Source of the DNA: a virus
IMG/VR virus record: IMGVR_UViG_3300031987_000007
Coordinates: 1,704-65,703 of that record
Direction: 5' to 3' (one strand)
Length of the DNA: 64,000 nt
Each line of letters begins with the position of its first letter. The first letter of the stretch is position 1. The position numbers were made by a program, and so were the translations under genes. This document shows positions 16,894 to 49,511 of this stretch, one piece after another. The notes beneath the pieces were generated by a model. The model ran no database searches. It saw nothing but the letters and a program-made list of their open reading frames with translations, and was not told the DNA's origin.

Positions 16894-18159
16894 TTATGAG
16901 AGGAAGTAGTTCGATTGTCTGATCTTGGCTGAGAGGTTGGGTGACTTCTTCGGGAAGGTTCCCTGTACGCCGTAGAGCTGGCTCAGAATGTCATTCAGCA
17001 GGGTGCTATCGGCCATCTCTGCGAAGATGTCCCGGTAGTGCATCCGTAGGAAGTTCATGTTGTTGGCATGGCACTTGAACTCGTCGTGTACCGAAATCAT
17101 GTGGAACGGTTTGTGAGTGAGCATCTGGTTCAAGATTGCTGCCAGTTGCTTCAGGTGAGTGGTAGATAAAGCTCCCAACGCCGATTCATCAGCGTAATCA
17201 AGAATACGAATATCCGGCATTACTGTGGCTGTGTACCGGTCCTGTAATCGTAAGAAGTCTGGATGACACTCATCTTCATAAGCTATGTGGTTGATACCCA
17301 TGGAACGTTCCAGAAGAACAGCTTCAATGGCTTGAGAAGCCCATGCCACTTGTTCTGCATCGTAGCTACAGCGCCGTATCAGGCATCTGAGTACATAGGC
17401 GTCAATGCTATGGATCACATTGGCGACGTTGCTCAGGCCTTTCTCAGTGCCTTCGTTGACGTAGTATTCGTACTCGAACGTGGCGTGATCCAGCTCATCC
17501 ACTTCGATGCGGGTTTCCACCTTCTCCATGACCTTAACGCGAGCGTGGCCACCGTCAGGCAGATCCCATGAGTGAACCAAGGCGTAAGGCGTCCATGAGT
17601 TCAAGAGGTCTTCCAACAGCTCACAGGCGCCCGGAGCAAGCTCGTACATGGCCTTGTAGAACGCCTGTAACTCAGGTGTATCTTTGCCGAACAGGTTCTT
17701 GGGCTCTTTCTTGGAGCCGTACAGCGAGGTCATAACCGCCTGCTTTACGTCGGACCTATCGGCCTCTCGGCCGGCAGCATCTTTGTTCAGGTAGTTACCG
17801 ATTCGCTTTTTCATCAGTGTCATGCAGTCAGTGTACGCATCAGCACGCCGGTTGGGATCGACCAAGCCAGTGGCATTGGCACCAGATTCACAGCCGGTGA
17901 TAGCCGACATGATCTGCATCCCAGAACACACCGCATCGAAGCCGACTTGGTGACCGGTAGGCAGGCCTTGCTGGGCTTTGCGAATGGCCTGAACAGCTTT
18001 CATGTACAGCGCAGGTTCATCGGCCTGTTCCGCCAAACTCTCGAGAGATTTGAGGTTGTCCGTGGCCCACTGGATACGGTCACCGAACAGGTCTTTATCA
18101 TTGCCGAACTGATTCGCGGCATCAATCAATAGGTACTCATAACCTGTAAAGGTTTGCAT
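16894..18159 (-). CDS. RNA polymerase II large subunit (N4 gp16-like, RNAP2)
   Basis: Motif A FDAVCSGMQ, motif B RSDVKQAVMTSLYG, motif C SVHDEF. Confidence 0.95.
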   Translation of the reverse strand: MQTFTGYEYLLIDAANQFGNDKDLFGDRIQWATDNLKSLESLAEQADEPALYMKAVQAIRKAQQGLPTGHQVGFDAVCSGMQIMSAITGCESGANATGLVDPNRRADAYTDCMTLMKKRIGNYLNKDAAGREADRSDVKQAVMTSLYGSKKEPKNLFGKDTPELQAFYKAMYELAPGACELLEDLLNSWTPYALVHSWDLPDGGHARVKVMEKVETRIEVDELDHATFEYEYYVNEGTEKGLSNVANVIHSIDAYVLRCLIRRCSYDAEQVAWASQAIEAVLLERSMGINHIAYEDECHPDFLRLQDRYTATVMPDIRILDYADESALGALSTTHLKQLAAILNQMLTHKPFHMISVHDEFKCHANNMNFLRMHYRDIFAEMADSTLLNDILSQLYGVQGTFPKKSPNLSAKIRQSNYFLS

Positions 18160-18496: not shown

Positions 18497-19141
18497 TCAG
18501 TCAGATCCGCGGATCAGGACGACATCGGTGGAAACGATGGTGGGTTCTTTATCGAGGTCTTCACGCAAGACGTTGAGCTTCTCAGTGTATTCGTACTGAA
18601 GATCCTCATCGTCGTTCAGCTTCAGCATCTGAAGGTAGTGATCCTCGAAAGGGTTTCCGTCAGCGAGTGGGTTGAATTGGGCGTACACCTTGTCGCGGGC
18701 CTGTTCCACAGTTTCAGCCATCACGATAATGTCGCCTTCGCTGTAGGCCTTGAGGCTTTCGGAACTCCAGTGGTAGAGGCTTTTCATACCGTAATTCCTT
18801 AAATCTTTGCGGCGTTCACCCATGGTGAGGGCGTTGTAGAACTTGGTCTCATCTTCTGGACCAGGTTCTTCATCCAGAAAGGTCATTCCCGGTTCAGGGA
18901 TGACATCGTCCACAACCACGCAGTCAGGCCGAAACCCTGACTTACCACGGATACCCGGTTCCTGAAATGGAAAACCTTTTAGATCCTCAGCTTTGATGCT
19001 GTTGGACGGTGTGCTGAAATCGACAACTGTCCGGCCATTACCAACAGGGAAGCTGTGTGGCTCAGGATTGGGTTTGGTGAGCCGACCGGTGGAGGTACCT
19101 TTCACCGTCATGCCTGTGGTCATTTTGTGGTCTTTACTCAT
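18497..19141 (-). CDS. Hypothetical mosaic protein between RNAP subunits
   Basis: 214 aa ORF with ATGA overlap to RNAP1. Confidence 0.65.
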   Translation of the reverse strand: MSKDHKMTTGMTVKGTSTGRLTKPNPEPHSFPVGNGRTVVDFSTPSNSIKAEDLKGFPFQEPGIRGKSGFRPDCVVVDDVIPEPGMTFLDEEPGPEDETKFYNALTMGERRKDLRNYGMKSLYHWSSESLKAYSEGDIIVMAETVEQARDKVYAQFNPLADGNPFEDHYLQMLKLNDDEDLQYEYTEKLNVLREDLDKEPTIVSTDVVLIRGSD

Positions 19142-20055
19142 AGTCCGGGTACTCCAGTGACCACCTCTTCATCGGCAAATTCTATTGATGCCTTTTTGAA
19201 GCCGGTGGCTTGCGTGTTGATGTGATACCCCTGTGAATACAGGCGTAGGCGTTTGTCGGCTTTGTTGGTAAGCCAGAAGCGATTGCCCTGGCCCGCGATC
19301 AACCGGTACCGCTGATAGGACTCCCGCTTGAACTGGCCCCATTGTTGGATCTTCTCCGGTGTGTCCAGATCGAAGGTAGGCTCCTCCTCTACGGTGCAGA
19401 GGAAGTCCAGATCGAGCTTGAGAGGCACTGCATTCTGTTTGTTGATGACATCCAGACAGATGTCTTCGCTGTGTCCGTTGGCTTTGCCAAGGATCAGACA
19501 GTCGTTGTGGGTGAGGTAGCCGGAGTCGTAGTTGGTACGGGCTTCTCGCGGCTCACACACCATCGGTGGCAGGTAACCGGACTGCACAACATAGCCAATG
19601 AGGTCTTGGCTCAGAGGTATCCGAGACTGGATCACCAGAGACGCAGAGCGGTCTGTCTTCACAATGTCAAAGGCATCGGTCAGGCAAAGTACCGCCATCA
19701 TCTCGGCAACGGTCGTGATTGAGTCGGCTTTGTCGTCGAACTTCAGTCTACCGGCCAGTTGTGCGGTAATGCTGGTGAACAGCTCAGGGGTCTGGCAGTA
19801 GGCCACACCAACAAACAGGGCCCGTACCAGCTCCTCCAGATCAATGTCTTGGATCTGGGCCAGACGGTTGTTCTTCTGAGGGTAGCCATGGTCCTTGGCC
19901 AGCCAGTCTTCCAGCAAGGTAATGCCTTCGGCCACCTTGGCTTCCATGCTTGGGTTGGCACGGATTTCCATATCAATGTAACGGTCGATGAATTTACGTG
20001 AGTACGTGTACTCGTTGGCGAACTGGATATCCCGCGGTGGCAGGCGCTTGGTCAT
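19138..20055 (-). CDS. RNA polymerase II small subunit (N4 gp15-like, RNAP1)
   Basis: LPPMVCEP, SGYLT, CLDVIN, F.L..KADKRLRLYSQGYHINTQ; synteny with RNAP2. Confidence 0.93.
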   Translation of the reverse strand: MTKRLPPRDIQFANEYTYSRKFIDRYIDMEIRANPSMEAKVAEGITLLEDWLAKDHGYPQKNNRLAQIQDIDLEELVRALFVGVAYCQTPELFTSITAQLAGRLKFDDKADSITTVAEMMAVLCLTDAFDIVKTDRSASLVIQSRIPLSQDLIGYVVQSGYLPPMVCEPREARTNYDSGYLTHNDCLILGKANGHSEDICLDVINKQNAVPLKLDLDFLCTVEEEPTFDLDTPEKIQQWGQFKRESYQRYRLIAGQGNRFWLTNKADKRLRLYSQGYHINTQATGFKKASIEFADEEVVTGVPGL

Positions 20056-37266: not shown

Positions 37267-38769
37267 ATGGCGAATCCAATCACTTGGCGGAATATTGCCG
37301 CCCCGAACTTCTCCGGTGCCTCCGACATGATGGGCCGGGCTCAAGAGTCTTTCACCGGCGCTTTGGATGCCTTGGGAGATACCAAGGATCAGTTTGAACA
37401 GGGCCGTACCAAACGCAACACACAGGACTTCATGGCAGAGCTGTCGAAGTACCGGACGCCGGAAGAATTGGCCGCGGCACAGGAGAGTGGTGCCATTGAC
37501 GCCTTGCGTCAGCAGTACAGTGGTAATGGTTTGATCGACACGGATAAGACCGATGCCGGTGCCATCCGAGACACCCTCACAGGCCTTAGACAGACTCGTG
37601 TGGCTGACCGGGAATACGCGGACAGTGAGACAGAGTTTGGCAACCGTGAGGCCCGTGACAACGCTCAGGCAGCTCTGGCTTCTGGGAACCTGGTTCGTTT
37701 TGACGAGATCGTGGCAAACAACGATTTCCTGAACCAAGGAGAACTGGCTCAGGGCCGTGCCGATGCAGCAGAACGTATTCGTCAACGTGGTATTGCGGAT
37801 GAACAACGTGCCTTCACACAACGCAAGCAGGGACGGTTGGAAGACCAGTGGGGGCGTGACGACGCTTTCCGTGAGTCTATTGCCGCTGCCCGCACGGCGG
37901 GTGCAGAGCGTAGACTGCGGGATAACCGGGCCTCTGAAGGTCTGGTAGCCGCCGCCACAGAGATGGGCTTACCGGTCGTCGATGGGGCTGTGGATTTCTC
38001 CAATGCCACACAAGAGCAACAAGCCCAGCTTCGTGGCATGGTTCAGGAACAGGATCTACTGGATCGAACCAGTGATACCCAGTACGTCAACCAGACCATG
38101 GCCAAGTTGTTGGAAGCCAATCCGGGTATGTCACCGGAACGTGAGCTGAATCTACGGGAAATGCTGGTGAATGAGACCTCACAAGGATCCTCTCTGACAC
38201 CTACGGACCAGGCCAAGATTGTCTCGGCACAGGAAGCTCTCAAAGAAAGTTCCAATATTGCCCAGAACCCTTTTAACACTCCACGGGAATCCTCTGATGT
38301 AGAGGCAGCCGATATCCTGGCACAAGATCCCCGATTCCTGGAATGGAATGCTGGTGAACGTGAAAAAGCCACACGCCAGGTTACCCAGGCAATGTCCGAC
38401 GGTGTGAAGGTGGGTAATAAAACCTTCCCGGTGACCCCGGCCATTGCTCGTATGGCTTTGCAAATCTCAGGTAACGCATGGACTGAGGTTGATGGCACTT
38501 TCAATGATGCAGTCAAGAAGCTAGTTGCCGACAACAACCTGGCCGACAAACTGGAAGAGTACGAAACCTGGAAGAAAGCCGATAAGGAGTTGGTTGCTGC
38601 CGGGAAAGCCGAGTTTGGGTCAGGGCGTAAAGCTCCGGCTCGCCAGTCTCGCTTTCGCAACTTCCTGGATAGTGACCTGTCAGCGCCTACCCAATCCCGC
38701 CCCGATCTACCGAAGCCTAGTTCATCCAATGGTCAACGCAATGACCGTCCCCAACGTGGAGGCCTTTAA
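37267..38769 (+). CDS. Putative internal/ejection protein (gp51 position)
   Basis: MANPITWRNI start; helical; immediately before vRNAP. Confidence 0.72.
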   Translation: MANPITWRNIAAPNFSGASDMMGRAQESFTGALDALGDTKDQFEQGRTKRNTQDFMAELSKYRTPEELAAAQESGAIDALRQQYSGNGLIDTDKTDAGAIRDTLTGLRQTRVADREYADSETEFGNREARDNAQAALASGNLVRFDEIVANNDFLNQGELAQGRADAAERIRQRGIADEQRAFTQRKQGRLEDQWGRDDAFRESIAAARTAGAERRLRDNRASEGLVAAATEMGLPVVDGAVDFSNATQEQQAQLRGMVQEQDLLDRTSDTQYVNQTMAKLLEANPGMSPERELNLREMLVNETSQGSSLTPTDQAKIVSAQEALKESSNIAQNPFNTPRESSDVEAADILAQDPRFLEWNAGEREKATRQVTQAMSDGVKVGNKTFPVTPAIARMALQISGNAWTEVDGTFNDAVKKLVADNNLADKLEEYETWKKADKELVAAGKAEFGSGRKAPARQSRFRNFLDSDLSAPTQSRPDLPKPSSSNGQRNDRPQRGGL

Positions 38770-41700
38770 TGTCCGAGTTTAACGCAAGCCGGTACTTTGA
38801 CAACTTGGCGGCTAAAGAGGCCGATACCACTCTGAGTCCGAACGCCTGGCAGGGTGTCCAGAACCGCCTGACCAAAAAGCAACAAGATGTGGCTGAAACC
38901 AGCCGGCGTAAGGTCGAAGCCATGCGTGAAAACGAACGGACCGTGAACCAACAAGACCAGTGGGACAGTGTCGCCGGTGATCTGGGTACTGGTTCGGACA
39001 TTGTCAGGGAAACCGTTGAAGGTGGTGTCAAGGGTGTTGGCGCTGTCTTTGGGGGTATTGGTGATGGTATTGAAGCGGCGGGTAAGGGTATCGAGGATGT
39101 CCTCGGCGCCGTAGGTCTGGGCGATGAAGTCCAGGCTGCTAATGAGTTTCTGGGTGGATTGGGTGTTAATGCCCCAAGCGAGGGCTTTCAGGGTGTTGAA
39201 AACTGGATGAACCAAGGTGCTGAGAACATAGACCAGTCTCAGGACATGGATTATCGACAGTCCCTGATCGACAGCACGCCAGGTGGTGATGTAACCGATC
39301 CAAGCACATGGACCCTGGGCGAGAACCCGAGTGCCGAGGGGTATGCGGGTCACATTGCCGGCATTATCGGTGGGTTCGCACCACAGGCCGCTACCTTACT
39401 GGCGGGTTCTCCTACACGGGTGGCCACAGCCATGGCGACAGTGGGCGGAGCCCAGGTAGGTGGCAGCCAAGCCAACGAAGCAGAAACCCGGATCAAAGCA
39501 GCGTCTCAGGAAGAGCTTTCTCAGATCGGTATGTATCAGGATCTTATTAAAGAAGGCGTCAGTCACGAAGACGCAGTTGAGCAGACCTCCAAAGCGGCAG
39601 GAGCGGCTGCGTTCATGGCGGCAGCACCTGTTGGTGCTGTTGGCGGTGCTGCCACCAGTTACATTCTGGGTCCACTACAGAAGCAGTTGGCCGGTAACAT
39701 CGCAGGCCGTACTGCCGGGTCGGTCGCATTGAGTGGTACCGAAGAAGCCACACAGGAAGTCAGTGAAACAGTCGCCGCCAGGGCCGGTGTGAATGCAGCC
39801 ATTGGTGATGACCAGGATCTGACCGCGGATACCTTTGCCGATGCCTTATTGGGCGGTGGCTTTGGTGCGGGACTGGGTGTTGCTGGTACCACAGCGTCCG
39901 AGTTGCAGCGTGCCGGACAAAAGAGAGCCGATAAGGAAGACAAGAAAGCCGCGGAGCGTCGGGCGACCAATGGCACCATTTCCGAGCTGATGGCGGCCGG
40001 GGATGTGGATACCTTGGTTGATCCGGAAGCAGGTAAACGCTTCAAGGCAGAAGATGTGGCCCAGGCTGCGGTAGTTGCAAGCACCACTGCGGAACTGGAT
40101 CAGGAAGTACAGAACAATGGTAAGAAAATTCTGCCGAAGATCGGTGAACGTCTGGAGACAGAGCTGGAAAACCTGAAAGCTGATGAAGCTTTACGGTCTC
40201 CGGAGGCGGAAACCAAGAACAAAGGGTTGCTGAAAAAAGCCCAGCAGCTCAAGGCCAGGGAAACAAAAGCGGGCAACAGCGTCGGGGTAGAGCAGGCCAA
40301 CGAGATGATTGGTCAGTTGACTGAAGAACTGAAAGCCACCCGGGACGAAGACAAGGCCGTAAAGAAAGAACGGACAGACCGGATCGAGGCGATGGAGTCG
40401 GCGATTGCCCGGGTCAACGTGGCCCAACGCAACCTGTCAGCCAATGCCTCCAAGTCGGTGGATGTGGATTCACTGATTTCTATAGTGGAAACGCCAGAGA
40501 CGGATGCTGTTGAGAAATCCTCGGCTGCACAGGAAATCATTACCCAGGCCATGGCCAATCCTGATGTGCTGACAGAAGACACAGCACTACGTCTGGCAGA
40601 TGACTCGGCCAACGGATTGACTGAGAAGCAACGTGGTTATCTGCGGTCCTTGTCCCAGAGCAAGGTGGCCGCCAATGAGTTGAAGGACTACACCGATGTG
40701 GTCAAAGACATCTTCTCGGCCAACCCTTCAACCGGTTTTAAAAGCCTTCCTCAATACCGTTCATCTGTTCAACGTGGTCTGACCAATGGCAGCACCGACC
40801 GGGTAGCTGCAGAGCTGGCTCAGCTCGGTCGCTTCTCTGAGTCACACCAGGCCAAGGCCGCACTGGCACGCCAGGCCTTTGACGGTATGGAACCAGGACA
40901 GAAGCAAGCCCAGATCGTCCACAGGGACGGTGGCTGGGAGATGAATACCGGTAAACCCATGAGTGACAAACAGCTCCGTGAGAACGGTGGCCTGTCTATC
41001 TCTACTGGTTCGCAACGTCTTGTCGAGGGGATCGAGCGTGAAGCTCAGGTGATTGAAGCCGCTCGCCAGGAACTGGAAGCGGCTACGGCCGTGACTACAC
41101 CTACAGAACAGCCGGAGGCTGTCTCAGATAATGAGACCGCTGATGTTGATGCTCAAGCCGATCAGAACGCTGACCAGGAGACTGAGAATGAAACAGACCA
41201 GACGCAAAGCGACCAACCTGCAGAAGAAGCTACAGCGCCAGAAACTTCAACGGAAGCGGAACCAGAGACGGGAACAGTCACTTCAGCAGAGCCTGAACGA
41301 GCCAGTGAAGATACTGAAGTTCGGGACAGAGCTGACGACGGTACACGGGATTTCGGAACAACTGTGGAAGGACGCGGTGGAGACACTGGGCGTGAGGAAT
41401 CTGTAGAGCCGGAAGCTCCGGCCAAGTCTGTCCTGTTTGTTGATCAGGGCACCTTCGAGCCGTATATCGGACAAACCACAGTGACTGAGTTCACCAGTAT
41501 GAATCTGGTTCAGGCTTACTTCACCACGAAGAAAGGTCTACCACTGACCGCGAACAAGGACTTCCTGAGTGAAACCTTGGCTACGAACCTGGATAACCCC
41601 GAAGCGTTGCCGGTTGAGTTCAGTGATAGGAATGACACCCGGGACAAGCAACAAGGTCTGGTGCGGTACTTTGCTGAAACCGCGACCAAGTGGAACCAGA

Positions 41701-44700
41701 CCGTTGATGCGTTGTTCCAGGACAAGAAGCGTAAGGACTTCCGCCATGAAAATCTGGTGACCTTCTTTGCTGAAAATGGTCAGTTGGATGAAAACACTAA
41801 GACTGCGATCAGTACCGCTGCGTTCACCTGGGCCGTCGAGAATGGTAATGACCTCTGGTACAACGATGAGGACGCTATCCGTAAGATCCTGGGTCTGGGT
41901 CCGCAGGATGTAGTAACGGACAACGACCGGTTACTGGTGGGTGATGTGGGTACCCGAGATAAGCTGGTGATTCAGGATCTGGGTCAACGAGTAACACAGG
42001 CCTTGGGCCAGCGGATCAGTAAAGACGCGCCGATCAATCACCAGGCCCAGTTGGAAGGGGCCTTTGGTGCCATAGCTTTGGCGGTGTTACAGGAGCAAGG
42101 GTATGTCCAGCGGATAGCCCGTCAAAATGCGGCATTTGGTACCGACCAGGTAAATGAAGAGGGGAAACTCCCCCTTAATTGGTTTGTACGTAGCAACCGG
42201 ATCACAGACAGCGAGGGGAATACCCAGTTCAACCCGATGATTACCGGACTGACCGACCGTGCCAAAGGTACTCAACAGATCGTTCATGACCTGTTCCGGG
42301 TGGAATCCCAGAAGACCGGGCCGGTGGACACAGCCCCGAAAAAAGTACAGGACACCACACGCCGGACGGACCAGAAAGTACCGAAAGAGCAGCGGAAGAT
42401 CCTTGAAGCGGCCATGGCCCAGGAACACTGGCTCAGGGCGGATATGCTCGATGCAGAGACCGGTATTCTGAATAAGCTACCAAGGGCCTTGGTCGATGCG
42501 ATCAGTGGTGTAGAGGCCACTGAGGACCGTCTGATCCATAAAGCAAACCGGTCCAGCCTGGATGCCAAGAATGAGTCGATTGTCCGCGGTAATGATTATA
42601 TGTATGAACTGGCCAACGACCGGTCTGATCGAATGGATCAGCCGTTCTTCTTTGATCGCTCGGTGTGGCGCCAGCAGCGTGTGGGTATCAAATCCAACAC
42701 GTTCAACCCCCAGGCCAGCAAGGTCCATCGTTTTGTAATCAAGATGGTTGGATGGGATTACGATGTGCCAGTAGCCCTGACAGGTGAATCTGGACAACGA
42801 TTCAAACTGGCTGTACTGGAATCCCTGGGTGTGAAGACAGACAAGCAGGGCAACGCCAAGTCACTAGGTCAGTGGGATACCACCGTCAACGATCCGGAAG
42901 TCCGGGCAGCGGTCGAGGCGTTGAAGAAGTTCAGCACCGGGCAGACCACCACACAGGCAGATCAGGATGCAATCCTGGCCGGCGTACAACGTGGCGGGGA
43001 AGACTTCCACAGCTTTGATGGCCTGTGGCACTTGGCTCAGGTAGAACTGGCTGAGACCACCGGCGAAACCAACTTCACAGCCACACTGGTTCGGGAAGGT
43101 GACGGTGTCACCAACGGACCAATGTTTGCACAGCTCCAGACCGGTGCTCTGTTTGGTCGTGACGGTATGGGCGCCAAGGGCGGGTTCTTCACCAAGGCAG
43201 ACGCGGTGCAGGATTATGGGGTATGGGCCCAGGAAGGCAGCAACCACGATTTGTACGAAACCCTGGCCAACGCTGTGGCTGAAAAGATGGAAGGTCAGAG
43301 AAGTGTGGATAGTGGTAGTGAGCCTTTCTACAACTTCCTGGATAAGATCCTTGGTCAGTTCCGGGATGTGGACACAGACGCGGTGACCGGTAAAGGCCGC
43401 AAGCGTGTGAAGACACCCCTGACGGCCATGGTATTTGGTGCCGGCAAAGAGAAGTCGATTGCCAACATGGGGCATGAGTTCGTAGACCTGATCTATGACA
43501 ACATCCAGGACATTCTGGACACCCATGACAATGACCGGGATGCCCGGGCTTCAATTGAAACTTTGTTCAGTGAGCTGAATGGATTTCTCCCGAAGAGCCA
43601 GCAAATCGGTATCCGGCCTACCCGTAAAAACGCAGCGGACCTGGAGTTCTCTGCGGGTCAGCGTGAAACCTTGGTTGGGTTGTTTGAAGGCACGATTGGT
43701 CAGCACATTGATAATGCTCTGGAAGATCAATATGGCGAGTTCTTGTCTCGGCGTAAGCGGTTGAACGATGCCGCTGGCCTGTCTTTCAAACTGTACAAGC
43801 TGGTGTATGACGCGGAGCGTCGAGCCATGATGCAGGAACTGGAAGGCGCCGGGACTATGCCGGTAAATAAAAAAGGCGAACCGCTTCAGGATCTGACCAA
43901 GGCTCAGGAACAGGAGCTGAACAAACGGGTTGAGGCCTTATCGCCACTGGTCCACACCGCCTTGTCAAAAGGTGGTAGCCGGGATGCGGGCCTGAAGATG
44001 GCCAAGATCCAGCGGTCCATGGCACCGGCCGACCAGCCACGTTGGAACGGTAAGGTCACGTTCAAGAAGCATGTACCGCTAAATGCCGATGCCAACGTGG
44101 ACACGTTGCATAAGAGTGTGCGTAAGGATTCTCGTAAGGAGATGGACTTCCGGGCAGTGGTTCAGGAAGAGACCGATCCGGGTGTGGCGCCATTGATCAT
44201 GCTGATTCACTCCATGGACAGTGCCATCATCTCCCGGGTGTACAAGAACGCCAACATCCTCAACGTTCACGATGCGGCCATTGGCTCGCCGGAACAGCTT
44301 GAGACAGTGATGAGGTCGATGAACCAGGAAACCCTGAACGCCCTGATTGAGTATTCGGTACCAGAAGAAGTTATGCAGGCGCTCTATCACACCTTGTTGA
44401 GCTTCAACGAACGGGCCGGTGATTTTGAACAGGATGCCCAGTTCCAGGCCGATTACAAAGCCCTCAAGAAAGAACTGAAGGCTGAGCCCGGTGAAAAAGC
44501 TGGGGAGTTGTTGAAAGCTGCTACGGATATGGACCAGGAAGCCATGCAGTGGGCCCAGGATCTGGAGTATGTGAACCAGTATGGATATGAAGGCAGTGCC
44601 TATCATGTTCAGGATTCCGATAGGCAACGCATTAAAGATCGTCTGAAAACCCCGATGAAAGACCGGATCATTGCCCGGTTGGGTAAGGCCAAGTTGGCCA

Positions 44701-47700
44701 ATCCGGAACAGGTATCTGGTGATCTGGCTCGGTACTTGGAGAAGCAGGAAGCGGCGTTTGTGGCACAGGTCGAGGCCGGCAACAACATGACCGCTTCCCA
44801 GCGTAATGAAGTCCGCGTCTTGAGGTTGGTCAATGAGGTGTTTATCCAGACCGGTGATCTCAACCAGGCACTGGGCCGGGTACTTCCCGGGACCAAAAAC
44901 AAGGCCGAAAGGGGCCGGTTACGTGGTCAACTGATCCAGATATTGGGTAGCAACAATGCCAAGCGCCGGGATGTACGTCATGCTCCAGCCGGCCGTGTTG
45001 TAGACATGATTCAGTCTGCCGAAGCTGGTAGCTGGTTGAGTGAGTCTGTAAAGGCGGATCTGGGCCGAGTCAAAGAAGCATTGCTGGAGAACCCGATGGA
45101 TGTGGCCGGCACTCTCCGGGCATCCACACGTACAGACGCCGATCACGCCGCGGTTATGGCCTACTTGCAGCGGGCCTACAACGGTCGCCGGGAAACCTCC
45201 TGGGGCACGTTGGGCACGCCACGGTCCAATTCCAGTGAGGCACTGGTTCAGGCAATGACGCAGACTCCGGTCATGAAAGCCAAGGATCTGTACCCCCATC
45301 TGAGGAAGGCCTTGCAGGAAATGCCGAAAGGCCCTTCACGCAGCGCCTTGGGACAGGTGTTGCTAGAGCTGCGGGACCGAATTGATCCAGAGCTTGAGGT
45401 TCGTTATATCACTCAGGATACCCCGGCTAGCTTGGCGCCCGAGAGTGTCACTGGTGCCCGAGGGTTCTTCCACCAGGGTGAGGGTGGTCGGTACATTGCC
45501 GTCAAGGGTCCGGACTTTGTAGAGTCGAACCTGACGCCTGAACTACTGGCTCACGAATTGATCCATTCGGTGGTGTCAGCGGATATCAAGAAAGAGCTGG
45601 CTGCCCAGAAGCGGAACAAGAACCACAAAAGCAACCTGACACCCCTGGTCAATGACCTGGAGCGGGTGCGTCAGAAAGCGGAAGAGTTGGTGGTGAATGA
45701 CACCGCACTGCAAGCCAAGTATGGCAATGCCGTGAAAGATGTCGATGAAATGGTGGCCTGGGGTATGTCAAACGCTGGCTTCCAGCAAGAAGTCTTGAGC
45801 CAGTTCGAGGTTGAGACCCAGACCCAGAACAACCGGTTTGTTACCGGGATGCAGTCGTTCATTAAGACTCTGGCCAATATCCTGTTCCGTAAGTCGGCAA
45901 CCCCGGCCCAGCAGAACGGCCTGAACGTGGTAATCAATAACGCATCTGGCTTGTTTGCAGCCGTAGCAGATTCCAAAGCAACCACCGTCGAAGTGACTGC
46001 CAAGCAGGAAACACCGGATCCGTTCGGGGAAGTGGACAAGTACACCACGGAAGATATTTACAATGCTTTGGACGGTGAGCCCGATGGACGGCTGCAGTCA
46101 GTTATGGATCAAGTTATCACCCATCTGCACGGTCCTTATGGGGGCATCAAGGCTTTGGTAGACCGTCAGACCGGGAACACGGCTGAGGATGTGTACCTCA
46201 ATGCGATGATCACCGGGGAGTTACCGTTCGCGTCTCGGGCCATTGCCTCTGGACTGGTGCTGTCTGACAAGCAGGCGTTTGTACTGGAACAGTCAGAAGT
46301 TACGATGCAGACCCTGATGGATGGTAAGAGCCTGGCGTCTAAGGACATGGTTCGTCTGTTCCGGAAGACCCGTAGCGAGCTGTCTGCCAAGGACTTTCAC
46401 GATGGTGATTGGGCGCTTGCAACGGATACGGAAAAGGCCAAGGCGCATCAGACCTACGACTTCATCTTCAAGCTGAATGCCACTGATACTGAATCCCGAT
46501 CGGACCACTTGAGCCGGTTTGCGGCCCTGGCACTGACTTACCCGCCGTTGTACCAGAAAATGAACTTCCCGGTAACACCGGAGCAAGGGTCATCCAGTGC
46601 CAAGATGGGTGAGCGTATCCAATCCTGGTTTAATGACCAGGTGCAGCGTTTTGCTAATGAAATCAACAAGACATACAGCGGCCAGGAAGGTCGTGCCCGT
46701 ATGGATGCGTTGGTGAAACGTCTGGTACAGATTGAGGCCCGTAAAAAGGCGAAGATCGCCAGTGGCAAAGTGTCACTACTGGATCAGATTGAAGAGGCCA
46801 ATAACAACGCAGCCGGTAGTGTCCGGTCTCGTGTGGCCAACCTGGCACGGTCTGAGCGGTTTTCCAACTCAGACAGTCCGATTGTACGTGCTGCTAGTAA
46901 AACAACAGCACTGGGCGCAGAGAACCGGCTGGGTGAGTTGTTGAACACCATGGAAGACTTCCGTAACAGTCGGTTCCCCGGGCGTCAGGGACTGGCGGCT
47001 TCTGCGATGTCCGAAGTACGGGGTACCACGGAATCCAACAAAGTGTTCCATGAGCTACTCAACGAAGCCGGCAAGAATGAGCGAGAGCGTAAGCAGCGGA
47101 TTGAAAGTGTGAAGCAACAAATCCTCGAGAGTTTTGGTGAGGATGGGGAATCACTGACTGATACCCAACGCTCGGACCTGACTCGGGTACTGTTGAAAAC
47201 GGATCTGTCAGCGTTGCTGGCTGACGACCGCTTTACCGTGAAGCAGTTGACCAATTTGGTAGACAACACACAGAATCTGGACACAACCATTGCTGAGGCC
47301 GAAGGGGATCTAGCGGCACTGGGCCCGAATGCGGCGTATTACAAAAATGCAGCCGAGGCCTTGGGGCATTTCATGGCCACCGGTGAAGTGCTGAGCCCAA
47401 ACCTGATGCTGAATGTTCACAACATTGCTAATAAGGTCGGTATGTCTGACGCCAACACTGTGGCGCCACAGGACGTAGAGGCGGCTAAGGCAATTCTCGA
47501 TCCGTTGGTAAGCCTGTACGCCTTGCGTGCCACCGGACAGACCCAGCAGCAAACAGTTAAACGTTTGATGCAGCATCAACAGGAGCGTGGTCAACAAAGT
47601 GGTGTGTTCTTTATGCTGAAGCTGCATCAATCCATGAAGGACGAGGCCAAGCGGGAGCTGTTTGATAATGACCCGGCGCTATTCACCAAGGGGTACATCA

Positions 47701-49511
47701 AGGAAATCTACAACCCACACCATTCGGTAGTGGCGGCGGATTCCGTAGACGGAGAAGCCCTGGAAAAAGCCGGGTACAGTAAAGGTGCTGAGGTGCCTCG
47801 TGATCCGGCAGATCCTGACCAGACTGTGAAGCACTTGTATATGACTCGGGATGGCGGTCTGCAAGGCTTTGTGACTGGCTCCATCTCGTATACTGGCTCA
47901 CGCGCCAAGGGCAGTAAGTTACACAGCGGACTGACTCGGGTGACCGAAGAAGGGGTCCACAGGAAGAACCAGAAAACCAACGCCGAGATTCAGCAGAACA
48001 AGGCAGCAGCCATTGCCTCACTGAATACGCCGGGTGCGTTCGCCAGGGCCAAGAAGGATGCTCAAGGTAATCTGGTCCCCATCGTGAACCCGGCTGGTGA
48101 TGTGGTGAACTACCGGTATTTGATGTCTGAGGGAAACAAGGATTCTTTATTGGATCGTGACCTGCGGGTAGACAATGTGATGGGAGCCATGGCCGGTAGC
48201 ATCTACGACAAGCCGAAGTCTGCGGACCAGAACCGGGAAGTGATCCAGGCGTTGAAGGATCAATTTGACGCAGAAGGGGCCAACAACCCCAACGCTTACA
48301 TGGAGTTCTCCCCAGACAGTGACGATCTACAGATCCGTGAGACCTATGCCCTGTTGCCGGACTCCACCAAGAAAGCCATCAAGGATACCTGGGGGCGTAA
48401 TGGTCTGATGGTTCGTAGTGATGTAATGGACATGGTGTTTGGATATCGTAAAGCCAGCCTGGCCAACGTGTACGATCGACAGGCAGCCCATGATGGCATT
48501 ATGGATGAACTGACTAATGGGCTGGCCAATGCGTTTGTTACCGGCACCACAGCGGTGTTTGGAGACAAAGCAGCGTACCGTATCCGACAAGGTGAGGATG
48601 TCTGGCAAGAATTGGTCAAAGAGCTGAAAGACATCTACGTGATTAAAAACTTGTGGACCTTACTGGGTAACATTTCCAGTAACGTCAGCCTATTGCTCTG
48701 GCACGGGGTTTCACCCTCGGATCTGGTTCGGGACCACAAGATCGCTATTGAAGGATTGCTCAACTACCAACGCAACCATGAAGAACTCATGAAGCTAGAG
48801 CGTCTCCGGGATACCGGAACATTCTCAGGTAACCAGAGTGACGTTGATCAACGGATTCTGGAGTTACAACACAGCATGAACAACAACCCGGTTAAAGAGT
48901 TGTTGGATGCCGGTCAGTTCCAGACCATCATCGAAGACATTGATGCGGAAACCGATCAGTTTTCCTACAAGTCGAAACTGGTGGACTGGACTGAAAACAA
49001 GACAGCGAAGCTACCCAGTTCAGTGAAGACAGCCGGTAAAACATTGTTCATGGCCCATGACACACCATTGTACAAGCTGCTTCACCGCAGCACGGCCATG
49101 AGTGACTTTGTGGGTCGGTACACGTTGTATCAGCACCTGACCACCAAAGCATCGAAAGGGAAGGAGCCCATGGAAAAAGGCGAAGCCATGCACAAGATCA
49201 AACAGGCCTTCGTCAACTATGACGTACCGACACACCGGACTCTGCAATACCTGAATGACACTGGTTTGGTGTTCTTCACTAAGTATTACATGCGAATCCA
49301 ACGTGTCTTGATGGAGCTGTACCAGGATAAGCCGGTGAGGGCCTTGCTAATGATCCTGTTCTCCCAGTTTGTGAGTAACGTTCCAGCGGTACAGGACTCG
49401 GCGTTCTTTGGTCGGATCGGAAATAACCCATTCGACACTGGCGCCCTGGGATTGCCAGGTGGGTTGGATGAAACGATCGTGATGCAAACGGCACTGAGTC
49501 CGTTCAACTAA
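38769..49511 (+). CDS. Virion-encapsidated RNA polymerase (N4 gp50)
   Basis: 3580 aa, Cys-free; motif A EGDGVTNGP, motif B RKRVKTPLTAMVFG, motif C NVHDA; C-terminal FVNYD.PT. Confidence 0.97.
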   Translation: MSEFNASRYFDNLAAKEADTTLSPNAWQGVQNRLTKKQQDVAETSRRKVEAMRENERTVNQQDQWDSVAGDLGTGSDIVRETVEGGVKGVGAVFGGIGDGIEAAGKGIEDVLGAVGLGDEVQAANEFLGGLGVNAPSEGFQGVENWMNQGAENIDQSQDMDYRQSLIDSTPGGDVTDPSTWTLGENPSAEGYAGHIAGIIGGFAPQAATLLAGSPTRVATAMATVGGAQVGGSQANEAETRIKAASQEELSQIGMYQDLIKEGVSHEDAVEQTSKAAGAAAFMAAAPVGAVGGAATSYILGPLQKQLAGNIAGRTAGSVALSGTEEATQEVSETVAARAGVNAAIGDDQDLTADTFADALLGGGFGAGLGVAGTTASELQRAGQKRADKEDKKAAERRATNGTISELMAAGDVDTLVDPEAGKRFKAEDVAQAAVVASTTAELDQEVQNNGKKILPKIGERLETELENLKADEALRSPEAETKNKGLLKKAQQLKARETKAGNSVGVEQANEMIGQLTEELKATRDEDKAVKKERTDRIEAMESAIARVNVAQRNLSANASKSVDVDSLISIVETPETDAVEKSSAAQEIITQAMANPDVLTEDTALRLADDSANGLTEKQRGYLRSLSQSKVAANELKDYTDVVKDIFSANPSTGFKSLPQYRSSVQRGLTNGSTDRVAAELAQLGRFSESHQAKAALARQAFDGMEPGQKQAQIVHRDGGWEMNTGKPMSDKQLRENGGLSISTGSQRLVEGIEREAQVIEAARQELEAATAVTTPTEQPEAVSDNETADVDAQADQNADQETENETDQTQSDQPAEEATAPETSTEAEPETGTVTSAEPERASEDTEVRDRADDGTRDFGTTVEGRGGDTGREESVEPEAPAKSVLFVDQGTFEPYIGQTTVTEFTSMNLVQAYFTTKKGLPLTANKDFLSETLATNLDNPEALPVEFSDRNDTRDKQQGLVRYFAETATKWNQTVDALFQDKKRKDFRHENLVTFFAENGQLDENTKTAISTAAFTWAVENGNDLWYNDEDAIRKILGLGPQDVVTDNDRLLVGDVGTRDKLVIQDLGQRVTQALGQRISKDAPINHQAQLEGAFGAIALAVLQEQGYVQRIARQNAAFGTDQVNEEGKLPLNWFVRSNRITDSEGNTQFNPMITGLTDRAKGTQQIVHDLFRVESQKTGPVDTAPKKVQDTTRRTDQKVPKEQRKILEAAMAQEHWLRADMLDAETGILNKLPRALVDAISGVEATEDRLIHKANRSSLDAKNESIVRGNDYMYELANDRSDRMDQPFFFDRSVWRQQRVGIKSNTFNPQASKVHRFVIKMVGWDYDVPVALTGESGQRFKLAVLESLGVKTDKQGNAKSLGQWDTTVNDPEVRAAVEALKKFSTGQTTTQADQDAILAGVQRGGEDFHSFDGLWHLAQVELAETTGETNFTATLVREGDGVTNGPMFAQLQTGALFGRDGMGAKGGFFTKADAVQDYGVWAQEGSNHDLYETLANAVAEKMEGQRSVDSGSEPFYNFLDKILGQFRDVDTDAVTGKGRKRVKTPLTAMVFGAGKEKSIANMGHEFVDLIYDNIQDILDTHDNDRDARASIETLFSELNGFLPKSQQIGIRPTRKNAADLEFSAGQRETLVGLFEGTIGQHIDNALEDQYGEFLSRRKRLNDAAGLSFKLYKLVYDAERRAMMQELEGAGTMPVNKKGEPLQDLTKAQEQELNKRVEALSPLVHTALSKGGSRDAGLKMAKIQRSMAPADQPRWNGKVTFKKHVPLNADANVDTLHKSVRKDSRKEMDFRAVVQEETDPGVAPLIMLIHSMDSAIISRVYKNANILNVHDAAIGSPEQLETVMRSMNQETLNALIEYSVPEEVMQALYHTLLSFNERAGDFEQDAQFQADYKALKKELKAEPGEKAGELLKAATDMDQEAMQWAQDLEYVNQYGYEGSAYHVQDSDRQRIKDRLKTPMKDRIIARLGKAKLANPEQVSGDLARYLEKQEAAFVAQVEAGNNMTASQRNEVRVLRLVNEVFIQTGDLNQALGRVLPGTKNKAERGRLRGQLIQILGSNNAKRRDVRHAPAGRVVDMIQSAEAGSWLSESVKADLGRVKEALLENPMDVAGTLRASTRTDADHAAVMAYLQRAYNGRRETSWGTLGTPRSNSSEALVQAMTQTPVMKAKDLYPHLRKALQEMPKGPSRSALGQVLLELRDRIDPELEVRYITQDTPASLAPESVTGARGFFHQGEGGRYIAVKGPDFVESNLTPELLAHELIHSVVSADIKKELAAQKRNKNHKSNLTPLVNDLERVRQKAEELVVNDTALQAKYGNAVKDVDEMVAWGMSNAGFQQEVLSQFEVETQTQNNRFVTGMQSFIKTLANILFRKSATPAQQNGLNVVINNASGLFAAVADSKATTVEVTAKQETPDPFGEVDKYTTEDIYNALDGEPDGRLQSVMDQVITHLHGPYGGIKALVDRQTGNTAEDVYLNAMITGELPFASRAIASGLVLSDKQAFVLEQSEVTMQTLMDGKSLASKDMVRLFRKTRSELSAKDFHDGDWALATDTEKAKAHQTYDFIFKLNATDTESRSDHLSRFAALALTYPPLYQKMNFPVTPEQGSSSAKMGERIQSWFNDQVQRFANEINKTYSGQEGRARMDALVKRLVQIEARKKAKIASGKVSLLDQIEEANNNAAGSVRSRVANLARSERFSNSDSPIVRAASKTTALGAENRLGELLNTMEDFRNSRFPGRQGLAASAMSEVRGTTESNKVFHELLNEAGKNERERKQRIESVKQQILESFGEDGESLTDTQRSDLTRVLLKTDLSALLADDRFTVKQLTNLVDNTQNLDTTIAEAEGDLAALGPNAAYYKNAAEALGHFMATGEVLSPNLMLNVHNIANKVGMSDANTVAPQDVEAAKAILDPLVSLYALRATGQTQQQTVKRLMQHQQERGQQSGVFFMLKLHQSMKDEAKRELFDNDPALFTKGYIKEIYNPHHSVVAADSVDGEALEKAGYSKGAEVPRDPADPDQTVKHLYMTRDGGLQGFVTGSISYTGSRAKGSKLHSGLTRVTEEGVHRKNQKTNAEIQQNKAAAIASLNTPGAFARAKKDAQGNLVPIVNPAGDVVNYRYLMSEGNKDSLLDRDLRVDNVMGAMAGSIYDKPKSADQNREVIQALKDQFDAEGANNPNAYMEFSPDSDDLQIRETYALLPDSTKKAIKDTWGRNGLMVRSDVMDMVFGYRKASLANVYDRQAAHDGIMDELTNGLANAFVTGTTAVFGDKAAYRIRQGEDVWQELVKELKDIYVIKNLWTLLGNISSNVSLLLWHGVSPSDLVRDHKIAIEGLLNYQRNHEELMKLERLRDTGTFSGNQSDVDQRILELQHSMNNNPVKELLDAGQFQTIIEDIDAETDQFSYKSKLVDWTENKTAKLPSSVKTAGKTLFMAHDTPLYKLLHRSTAMSDFVGRYTLYQHLTTKASKGKEPMEKGEAMHKIKQAFVNYDVPTHRTLQYLNDTGLVFFTKYYMRIQRVLMELYQDKPVRALLMILFSQFVSNVPAVQDSAFFGRIGNNPFDTGALGLPGGLDETIVMQTALSPFN

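What the first reader, a model, noticed from the sequence alone, without database searches (positions are those of the whole stretch)
43398..43439. vRNAP motif B has Phe in place of the sugar-discriminating Tyr
Seen: R-KRV-K-TPLTAMV-F-G (R1544, K1548, F1556; codon TTT at 43434), whereas this phage's RNAP2 keeps LYG. Established: motif B is Rx3Kx7YG, and T7 RNAP Y639F relaxes discrimination against 2'-deoxy and 2'-fluoro NTPs. Inference: a natural Y-to-F vRNAP could accept dNTPs or modified NTPs, relevant to priming and biotechnology. TTT is one base from TAT, so sequencing error must be excluded.
Basis: partly seen in the sequence, partly recalled or inferred. Interest (0 to 1): 0.6.

Follow-up and report, generated by a model that had tools for sequence, protein, structure and literature searches.

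The report
Phe-type phage virion RNA polymerase
The phenylalanine replacing the sugar-sensing tyrosine in this phage's injected RNA polymerase is real, but it is the normal state of a large group of N4-like phages (noted in 2010) and almost always comes with a histidine that may back up sugar checking.

Summary
Observation confirmed. The 3580-aa virion RNA polymerase (vRNAP, window 38769-49511, +) has motif B R1544-x3-K1548-x7-F1556-G1557, with TTT at 43434-43436. F1556 aligns with N4 Y678 and T7 Y639. The phage's RNAPII keeps Tyr.

It is not an error and not special to this phage. Of 233 vRNAP relatives, 211 carry Phe. Cultured Pseudomonas N4-like phages (Luzseptimavirus, Litunavirus, Shizishanvirus) carry it too. 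Ceyssens et al. 2010 already noted a "Y678F substitution" in LUZ7, LIT1 and PEV2. Only Tyr or Phe ever occurs here, and the state changed at least 9-14 times on the tree. All 120 RNAPII relatives and all 120 N4-proximal vRNAPs keep Tyr.

New here: Phe is tightly coupled to His at the T7-H784-equivalent position (H1814). Counts are F/His 252, F/non-His 2, Y/His 31, Y/non-His 37. A correlated-evolution test gives LR 50, p about 4e-10. Phe arises only on a His background, and Phe without His, the natural analogue of the T7 Y639F/H784A mutant, is nearly absent.

So this enzyme has the T7-Y639F genotype. Insertion-step sugar discrimination may be weaker, but a second constrained residue argues against simple promiscuity. 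No biochemistry exists. It is a new member of a known kind, of moderate interest.

The parts
38769..49511 (+). vRNAP gene, 3580 aa (P0001), no cysteine
   Evidence: ORF list and translation. phrog_2206 'virion RNA polymerase' matches at E 0 over residues 191-3574. phmmer to N4 mini-vRNAP structures 2PO4/3C2P/3Q0A gives E 5e-17. Zero Cys.
42666..42680 (+). T/DxxGR-equivalent motif, here W1300-R-Q-Q-R1304 (only the Arg is kept)
   Evidence: Aligned to N4 TRVGR and to T7 D421-R425. R is present in 251/252 and W in 221/252 sequences.
43095..43121 (+). Motif A, E-G-D1445-G-V-T-N-G-P (catalytic Asp at 43101-43103)
   Evidence: Aligned to N4 EADGVTNGP (D559) and T7 D537. D is invariant in 231/231.
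43398..43439 (+). Motif B, R1544-x3-K1548-x7-F1556-G1557 (the finding)
43434..43436 (+). TTT codon of F1556, at the position of N4 Y678 and T7 Y639
   Evidence: The column holds only F (215) or Y (37) in 252 sequences.
44208..44210 (+). CAC codon of H1814 in I-H-S-M-D-S, equivalent to T7 H784 and evolutionarily coupled to F1556
   Evidence: hhalign register with T7 FVHSQDGS. His is present in 252 of 254 Phe-type sequences but only 31 of 68 Tyr-type. Pagel-type test gives p 4e-10.
44268..44273 (+). Motif C, H1834-D1835 (catalytic Asp)
   Evidence: Aligned to T7 H811-D812. D is invariant in 231/231.
16894..18159 (-). RNAPII large subunit (P0234, 421 aa). Motif B RSDVKQAVMTSLYG lies at 17716-17757; His250 and motif C VHDEF are present.
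   Evidence: Pfam PF00940 at E 1.7e-21. phrog_2051 at E 3e-151..
19138..20055 (-). RNAPII small subunit (P0235, 305 aa)
   Evidence: phrog_2166 'N4-like RNA polymerase' at E 5e-93.

Best explanation
F1556 is the lineage-typical residue of a very large, mostly uncultured clade of schitovirus virion RNA polymerases. The cultured Pseudomonas genera Luzseptimavirus, Litunavirus and Shizishanvirus belong to this clade. The enzyme is an ordinary N4-type injected single-subunit RNA polymerase with all catalytic residues in place. At the end of the O helix only the aromatic ring is required (Tyr or Phe, never anything else). The hydroxyl is dispensable provided that His is present at the T7-H784-equivalent position (H1814 here). 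Shown: the Phe state, its distribution, its repeated interchange with Tyr, and its strong evolutionary coupling to His. Inferred: Tyr-OH and His are partly redundant. In T7, Tyr-OH checks the 2'-OH of the incoming NTP, and His contacts the minor groove or primer end and affects extension after a modified nucleotide. Loss of the hydroxyl would then make His indispensable. Also inferred: the enzyme, which has the same two-residue genotype as T7 Y639F, probably discriminates less well against 2'-deoxy or 2'-fluoro NTPs at insertion than N4 vRNAP does. It would still work as an RNA polymerase in cells, where rNTPs far exceed dNTPs and only a few early transcripts are needed.
For: Distribution: 211 F and 22 Y among 233 relatives. 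Cultured F-type phages are KPP21, PAP02, phCDa and TEMp-D1. Fifteen other cultured phages carry Y. All 120 N4-proximal proteins carry Y. All sequences in the window's supported 11-row clade carry F. The Y/F state changed at least 13 times on a 252-row tree, with 9 changes forced by well-supported branches. Coupling counts are F/His 252, F/non-His 2, Y/His 31, Y/non-His 37. The dependent versus independent 4-state model gives LR 49.96 on 4 df, p 3.7e-10, with a Yx->Fx rate of 0 and Fx lost at rates 2-4 against FH->Fx at 0.056. By parsimony, 6 of 6 Y->F events fall on a His background, and 8 of 10 His losses end on Tyr branches. All 120 RNAPII relatives keep Tyr. Literature: the natural 'Y678F substitution' was noted for LUZ7, LIT1 and PEV2 (PMC3715699). 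[quoted passage not shown] Y639F reduces discrimination, but what remains is still substantial (PMC4538805).
Against: No F-type vRNAP has been assayed, so both the degree of sugar discrimination and the role of His1814 are inference. In T7, H784 alone does not prevent the Y639F relaxation, so 'compensation' may be only partial or may concern another property such as extension, fidelity or packing. The strict independent-pairs sign test on the first data set was not significant (3:0 of 8 pairs, p 0.25). The Pagel-type test uses one FastTree topology, a midpoint root and a chi-square approximation. The data sets overlap partly (IMG/VR loci and protein clusters). Most non-His residues are Gln, which can also hydrogen-bond, so the rule is 'Phe needs His specifically', not 'one H-bonder is enough'.
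Confidence: 0.8

Rival explanations
1. Adaptive promiscuity. Under this reading the Phe was selected because the injected polymerase must accept dNTPs or modified NTPs, for example to make DNA-containing primers or to cope with altered nucleotide pools.
For: Y-to-F relaxes 2'-group discrimination in T7 and Syn5. Motif A keeps the Gly-rich RNAP form with no steric-gate Glu. Phe is dominant across a large clade.
Against: The state flips back to Tyr about 8-9 times within the clade. That is unlike a trait needed for a special chemistry. His1814 is under much stronger constraint in Phe enzymes, the opposite of what selection for maximal promiscuity predicts, since T7 Y639F/H784A is the more permissive enzyme. 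Nothing in the evidence ties vRNAP to priming.
Confidence: 0.1
2. Pure neutral drift. Under this reading Tyr and Phe are interchangeable in vRNAPs with no compensation, and the His association is a by-product of shared ancestry.
For: Many Y/F changes occur. No other consistently co-varying column was found in the 800-aa core over 11 independent pairs. The strict sign test is not significant.
Against: The dependent model beats the independent one by 25 log-likelihood units. His is lost about 28 times more often per unit branch length on Tyr/His than on Phe/His branches: 8 losses in 17.8 units against 2 in 124.2. In the independent IMG/VR sample, 0 of 45 Phe enzymes lack His, against 29 of 46 Tyr enzymes.
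Confidence: 0.08
3. Sequencing or assembly error, or a private mutation of this contig, turned TAT into TTT.
For: The codons differ by one base, and the protein is known from a single contig (1 member, 1 contig).
Against: Phe is the residue of all 10 nearest relatives and of 90% of 233 relatives. The gene is an intact 3580-codon ORF.
Confidence: 0.01

Closest known systems
vRNAPs of Pseudomonas phages LUZ7, LIT1, PEV2 and KPP21 (Migulavirinae) and phCDa (Shizishanvirus)
   Same: Giant Cys-free vRNAP. Motif B carries Phe (RKVIKQPLTAMMFG, RNVIKKPLTAMMFG) and His sits at the H784-equivalent position. The 'Y678F substitution' is noted in Ceyssens et al. 2010, Suppl. Fig. S2 legend.
   Different: Only about 32% identity over the polymerase core. 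The window's phage is an uncultured IMG/VR genome whose nearest proteins are 42-44% identical.
Coliphage N4 vRNAP (gp50) and mini-vRNAP, PDB 2PO4, 3C2P, 3Q0A
   Same: Homologous polymerase core (E 5e-17). Motifs A, B (R, K, G) and the catalytic Asp of motif C are aligned.
   Different: N4 has Tyr678, no His at the H784-equivalent position (TIGTGD), motif C FDG in place of HDA, and TRVGR in place of WRQQR. The engineered N4 Y678F is therefore Phe without His, a combination that is nearly absent in nature. Its reported dNTP incorporation (Kazmierczak et al. 2002) is cited from memory and; the paper was not held.
T7 RNA polymerase mutants Y639F and Y639F/H784A; Syn5 Y564F
   Same: The window's enzyme has the Y639F genotype (Phe plus His) at aligned positions. 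The engineered mutants show that the hydroxyl mediates 2'-OH discrimination.
   Different: Those are laboratory mutants of promoter-specific dsDNA-dependent enzymes of about 880 aa. Here the state is natural, ancient and embedded in a 3580-aa injected enzyme. Its biochemical behaviour is untested.
This phage's own RNAPII (N4 gp15/gp16-type heterodimer)
   Same: T7-like motifs A, B and C.
   Different: It keeps Tyr and His like T7. All 120 relatives keep Tyr, and at least 113 of them keep His.

Membership tests
Schitoviridae virion RNA polymerase (N4 gp50 family, phrog_2206) | Single giant polypeptide of about 3300-3900 aa with full-length similarity to the family | tested here: met
   3580 aa. 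phrog_2206 matches at E 0 over residues 191-3574. 890 representative relatives were found, and the best 150 are mostly 3300-3900 aa.
Schitoviridae virion RNA polymerase (N4 gp50 family, phrog_2206) | Central polymerase core homologous to the N4 mini-vRNAP structure | tested here: met
   phmmer to 2PO4, 3C2P and 3Q0A gives E 5e-17, covering residues 1202-1596. The Pfam N4_RNAP_helical and vRNAP_dom_2 hits are weak and below the curated cut-off. No structure was predicted.
Schitoviridae virion RNA polymerase (N4 gp50 family, phrog_2206) | N4-like genome context with a separate heterodimeric RNAPII | tested here: met
   RNAPII large and small subunits lie at 16894-18159 and 19138-20055 on the minus strand. 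The virus record is 73.6 kb.
Schitoviridae virion RNA polymerase (N4 gp50 family, phrog_2206) | Packaged in the virion, injected, and transcribes early genes from hairpin promoters | not testable with these tools
   Uncultured metagenomic genome. The absence of Cys in 3580 residues matches the trait described for N4, LUZ7 and DEV.
T7-like single-subunit RNA polymerases (motifs T/DxxGR, A, B, C) | Catalytic Asp of motifs A and C; Arg and Lys of motif B | tested here: met
   D1445, D1835, R1544 and K1548 are in register with T7 D537, D812, R627 and K631. They are invariant in 231-252 relatives.
T7-like single-subunit RNA polymerases (motifs T/DxxGR, A, B, C) | Motif B Tyr (Rx3Kx7YG) that hydrogen-bonds the 2'-OH | tested here: not met
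   Phe at 1556. This is a natural variant shared by about 90% of the nearest 233 relatives.
T7-like single-subunit RNA polymerases (motifs T/DxxGR, A, B, C) | T/DxxGR motif | tested here: inconclusive
   It reads WRQQR here. Only the Arg (T7 R425 equivalent) is conserved, and this is the clade consensus (WKQQR).

The most novel reading that the evidence does not exclude
Schitovirus vRNAPs use two alternative, epistatically linked solutions for ribose checking. One is Tyr (with His optional), as in N4. The other is Phe with an obligatory His at the T7-H784-equivalent position, as in this phage. If so, F/His enzymes are natural Y639F-like polymerases that rely on a His-dependent check. They would be a ready-made, diverse source of ssDNA-templated polymerases with intrinsically altered 2'-group selectivity, and the Y/H pair would be a natural experiment on how single-subunit RNAPs tell RNA from DNA precursors.
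Probability: 0.35. Interest if true: 0.55.

Novelty: new member of a known kind. Interest (0 to 1): 0.4.

Why it matters
The Phe by itself is ordinary. It shows that reading N4 as the family norm is misleading, because most sampled vRNAP diversity near this phage carries Phe.

What may matter is the coupling to His1814. Two residues that polymerase engineers mutate together in T7 (Y639, H784) to admit 2'-modified nucleotides turn out to co-evolve in nature. The doubly 'open' combination is almost never tolerated.

That gives a concrete, cheap biochemical test of partial redundancy in sugar discrimination. It also points to hundreds of natural Phe/His enzymes that could be screened for 2'-F or 2'-deoxy incorporation on single-stranded templates.

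Tried and rejected
1. Megablast of the region against GenBank phages found nothing. A single-protein scan of IMG/VR also found no relative. The phage has no close sequenced relative, so no same-species contig could verify the codon.

2. Kazmierczak et al. 2002 and Basu & Murakami 2013 could not be read. The N4 Y678F phenotype is therefore cited from memory and through Ceyssens 2010.

3. A first scan for columns co-varying with Y/F required majority residue swaps in 11 independent pairs. It gave only weak hits (1290, 1813, 1833 and others) and missed the His coupling. The coupling was seen only when H1814 was tabulated directly.

4. The strict independent-pairs sign test was not significant. 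I kept it in the report as a caveat and widened the sample instead.

5. MAFFT placed N4 'I' or 'G' opposite H1814, depending on the run. Either way N4 has no His or Gln there.

6. Global hhalign against T7 failed. The local alignment (E 0.014) is weak statistically but hits all five motifs in register.

7. Structure prediction was not run. The tools return no coordinates, so F1556-H1814 distances could not have been measured.

8. Earlier notes of this scan on the same genome concern other loci and did not bear on this finding.

Full report
**1. The observation**

The window holds a 10.7-kb ORF (38769-49511, + strand, 3580 aa). At 43398-43439 it reads R-K-R-V-K-T-P-L-T-A-M-V-F-G, that is R1544, K1548, F1556 and G1557, with TTT at 43434-43436.

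The protein is a virion RNA polymerase:
- phrog_2206 'virion RNA polymerase' matches at E 0 over residues 191-3574.
- phmmer hits the N4 mini-vRNAP crystal structures at E 5e-17.
- There is not a single cysteine in 3580 residues. This trait has been described for the vRNAPs of N4, LUZ7 and DEV.

The window is part of a 73.6-kb IMG/VR virus record. It has no close DNA relative among GenBank phages.

**2. Is F1556 at the sugar-discriminating position?**

Yes.
- The HMMER alignment to N4 mini-vRNAP pairs RKRVKTPLTAMVFGAG with RGIAKNPLTITIYGSG. In the N4-like full-length protein the Tyr of that motif is residue 1675, which is mini-vRNAP Y678.
- A profile of 231 vRNAP cores aligned to T7 RNAP (hhalign, local, E 0.014, statistically weak) puts five motifs in register:
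  - T7 R425 on R1304
  - D537 on D1445
  - R627/K631/Y639 on R1544/K1548/F1556
  - H784 on H1814
  - H811-D812 on H1834-D1835
The RNAPII large subunit (16894-18159, minus strand; Pfam RNA_pol E 1.7e-21) has RSDVKQAVMTSLYG at 17716-17757.

**3. How unusual is the Phe?**

It is not unusual.

| Sample | Phe | Tyr |
|---|---|---|
| 233 relatives from the two large protein searches | 211 | 22 |
| 252 aligned sequences, cultured phages included | 215 | 37 |
| 120 proteins nearest to N4 | 0 | 120 |

- No other residue occurs at this column. R and K are invariant in the 252-sequence alignment, and G is present in 250 of 252.
- Cultured phages with Phe: Pseudomonas phages KPP21 (Luzseptimavirus), PAP02 (Litunavirus), phCDa (Shizishanvirus), and the record named Photobacterium phage TEMp-D1.
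- Cultured phages with Tyr: N4, ECBP1, Axy13, RHEph16, C121, JA-1, pVco-5, phi50-12, pYD6-A, Possum, pKP-BM327, At2, SP-058, V17 and UCB24.
- The window sits in a supported clade whose 11 members all have Phe.

This excludes a sequencing error for practical purposes, although reads could not be checked.

The substitution has also been seen before. The legend of Suppl. Fig. S2 of Ceyssens et al. [quoted passage not shown] I found no biochemical follow-up in the held library.

**4. Evolutionary behaviour**

On a FastTree tree of 252 polymerase cores, with the column itself removed, the Y/F state needs at least 13 changes. Nine of these are forced by well-supported branches. Rooted on the N4 group, parsimony gives one early Tyr-to-Phe change at the base of a 237-leaf clade, followed by about nine reversions and three further gains.

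By contrast, all 120 best relatives of this phage's RNAPII keep Tyr. These come in part from the same contigs as the Phe-type vRNAPs. So in vRNAPs the ring is essential but the hydroxyl is not.

**5. A coupled residue**

I tabulated the T7-H784-equivalent position (H1814, CAC at 44208-44210, motif I-H-S-M-D-S) against Y/F. The result is strongly asymmetric.

| Data set | F/His | F/non-His | Y/His | Y/non-His |
|---|---|---|---|---|
| First protein set | 207 | 2 | 14 | 8 |
| 80 IMG/VR loci (fetched with a Tyr-type query alignment) plus cultured phages | 45 | 0 | 17 | 29 |
| Combined, 322 rows (some overlap between sources) | 252 | 2 | 31 | 37 |

- Cultured Phe-type phages all have His. Cultured Tyr-type phages mostly have Gln. 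N4 has neither (TIGTGD). Only pYD6-A has Tyr plus His.
- I ran a Pagel-type likelihood test of my own on the 322-row tree, with both columns removed. The independent model gives lnL -116.66 and the dependent model -91.68. That is LR 49.96 on 4 df, p about 4e-10.
- Fitted rates:
  - Phe never arises on a non-His background (rate 0, against 0.20 on a His background).
  - Phe/non-His is left at rates of 2-4, while it is entered at 0.056.
- By parsimony, 6 of 6 Tyr-to-Phe events lie on a His background. His is lost 8 times on 17.8 units of Tyr/His branch length against 2 times on 124.2 units of Phe/His.

Caveats:
- The test uses one FastTree topology and a chi-square approximation.
- A stricter independent-pairs sign test on the smaller set was only 3:0 and not significant.

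**6. Mechanism**

Established for T7:
- The Y639 hydroxyl hydrogen-bonds the ribose 2'-OH.
- Y639F allows 2'-F and 2'-NH2 incorporation.
[quoted passage not shown] The Y639F/H784A double mutant is the more permissive enzyme (PMC4551944; PMC6535458).
- Even Y639F keeps substantial discrimination (PMC4538805).

Inference:
- In vRNAPs the Tyr hydroxyl and the His act as partly redundant checks.
- With Tyr present, the second position is free to be His, Gln, Gly, Ala, Thr, Leu or Met.
- With Phe, only His is tolerated.
- The window's enzyme (F1556 plus H1814) has the T7-Y639F genotype.
- N4 Y678F, the laboratory mutant, has the Phe/non-His genotype that nature avoids.

I therefore expect weaker discrimination at the insertion step than in N4 vRNAP, but not an unconstrained, DNA-making enzyme.

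An adaptive need for dNTPs or modified NTPs is unlikely for two reasons. The state reverts often, and the His is more constrained in Phe enzymes, not less. None of this has been tested biochemically.

**7. Verdict**

The position is right and it is not an error, but it is a known clade-wide trait and not a peculiarity of this phage.
- The enzyme is a new, distant member (42-44% identity to its nearest relatives) of the already noted Phe-type vRNAPs.
- The Phe-His coupling was not found in the held literature. It is the part worth a follow-up.

Noticed in passing
window 42666-42680 (vRNAP residues 1300-1304): The T/DxxGR motif of T7-like polymerases (TRVGR in N4) reads WRQQR here and WKQQR in most of the clade. 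Only the Arg (T7 R425 equivalent) is conserved (251/252); Trp is present in 221/252.
   Followed up: partly
window 38769-49511: The 3580-residue vRNAP contains no cysteine at all. This matches what was described for the N4, LUZ7 and DEV vRNAPs, where it is thought to help passage through the tail and periplasm.
   Followed up: partly
window about 41076-41470 (vRNAP residues about 770-900): Acidic, Thr/Glu/Asp/Pro-rich low-complexity linker (28% Asp plus Glu) just upstream of the polymerase core.
   Followed up: no
P0238 (relative of window 16894-18159, minus strand): An RNAPII large-subunit relative, 70% identical, is named 'uncultured Marinobacter sp.' by NCBI and occurs on a contig of up to 405 kb. 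This is either a host hint (marine Gammaproteobacteria) or a mis-binned phage contig.
   Followed up: no
L005 (PP852687.1, 'UNVERIFIED Photobacterium phage TEMp-D1') versus L004 (Pseudomonas phage PAP02): The two vRNAP segments are 96.4% identical in DNA over 3564 bases. The Photobacterium record therefore looks like a Pseudomonas Litunavirus, through a mislabelled host or contamination.
   Followed up: partly
P0195 and P0230 (metagenomic vRNAPs): These are the only two sequences with Phe at the Y639-equivalent position and Gln in place of His at the H784-equivalent position. They are natural analogues of the T7 double mutant and worth a look as possible truly permissive enzymes or decaying genes. 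P0195 is a 1131-aa fragment.
   Followed up: no
N4-like vRNAPs (P0355-P0474): All 120 N4-proximal proteins share an identical motif B (RGIAKNPLTITIYG). They have TIGTGD where other vRNAPs have [HQ]SxD, and motif C FDG where others have HDA. N4 is therefore an atypical reference for the family's active site.
   Followed up: partly
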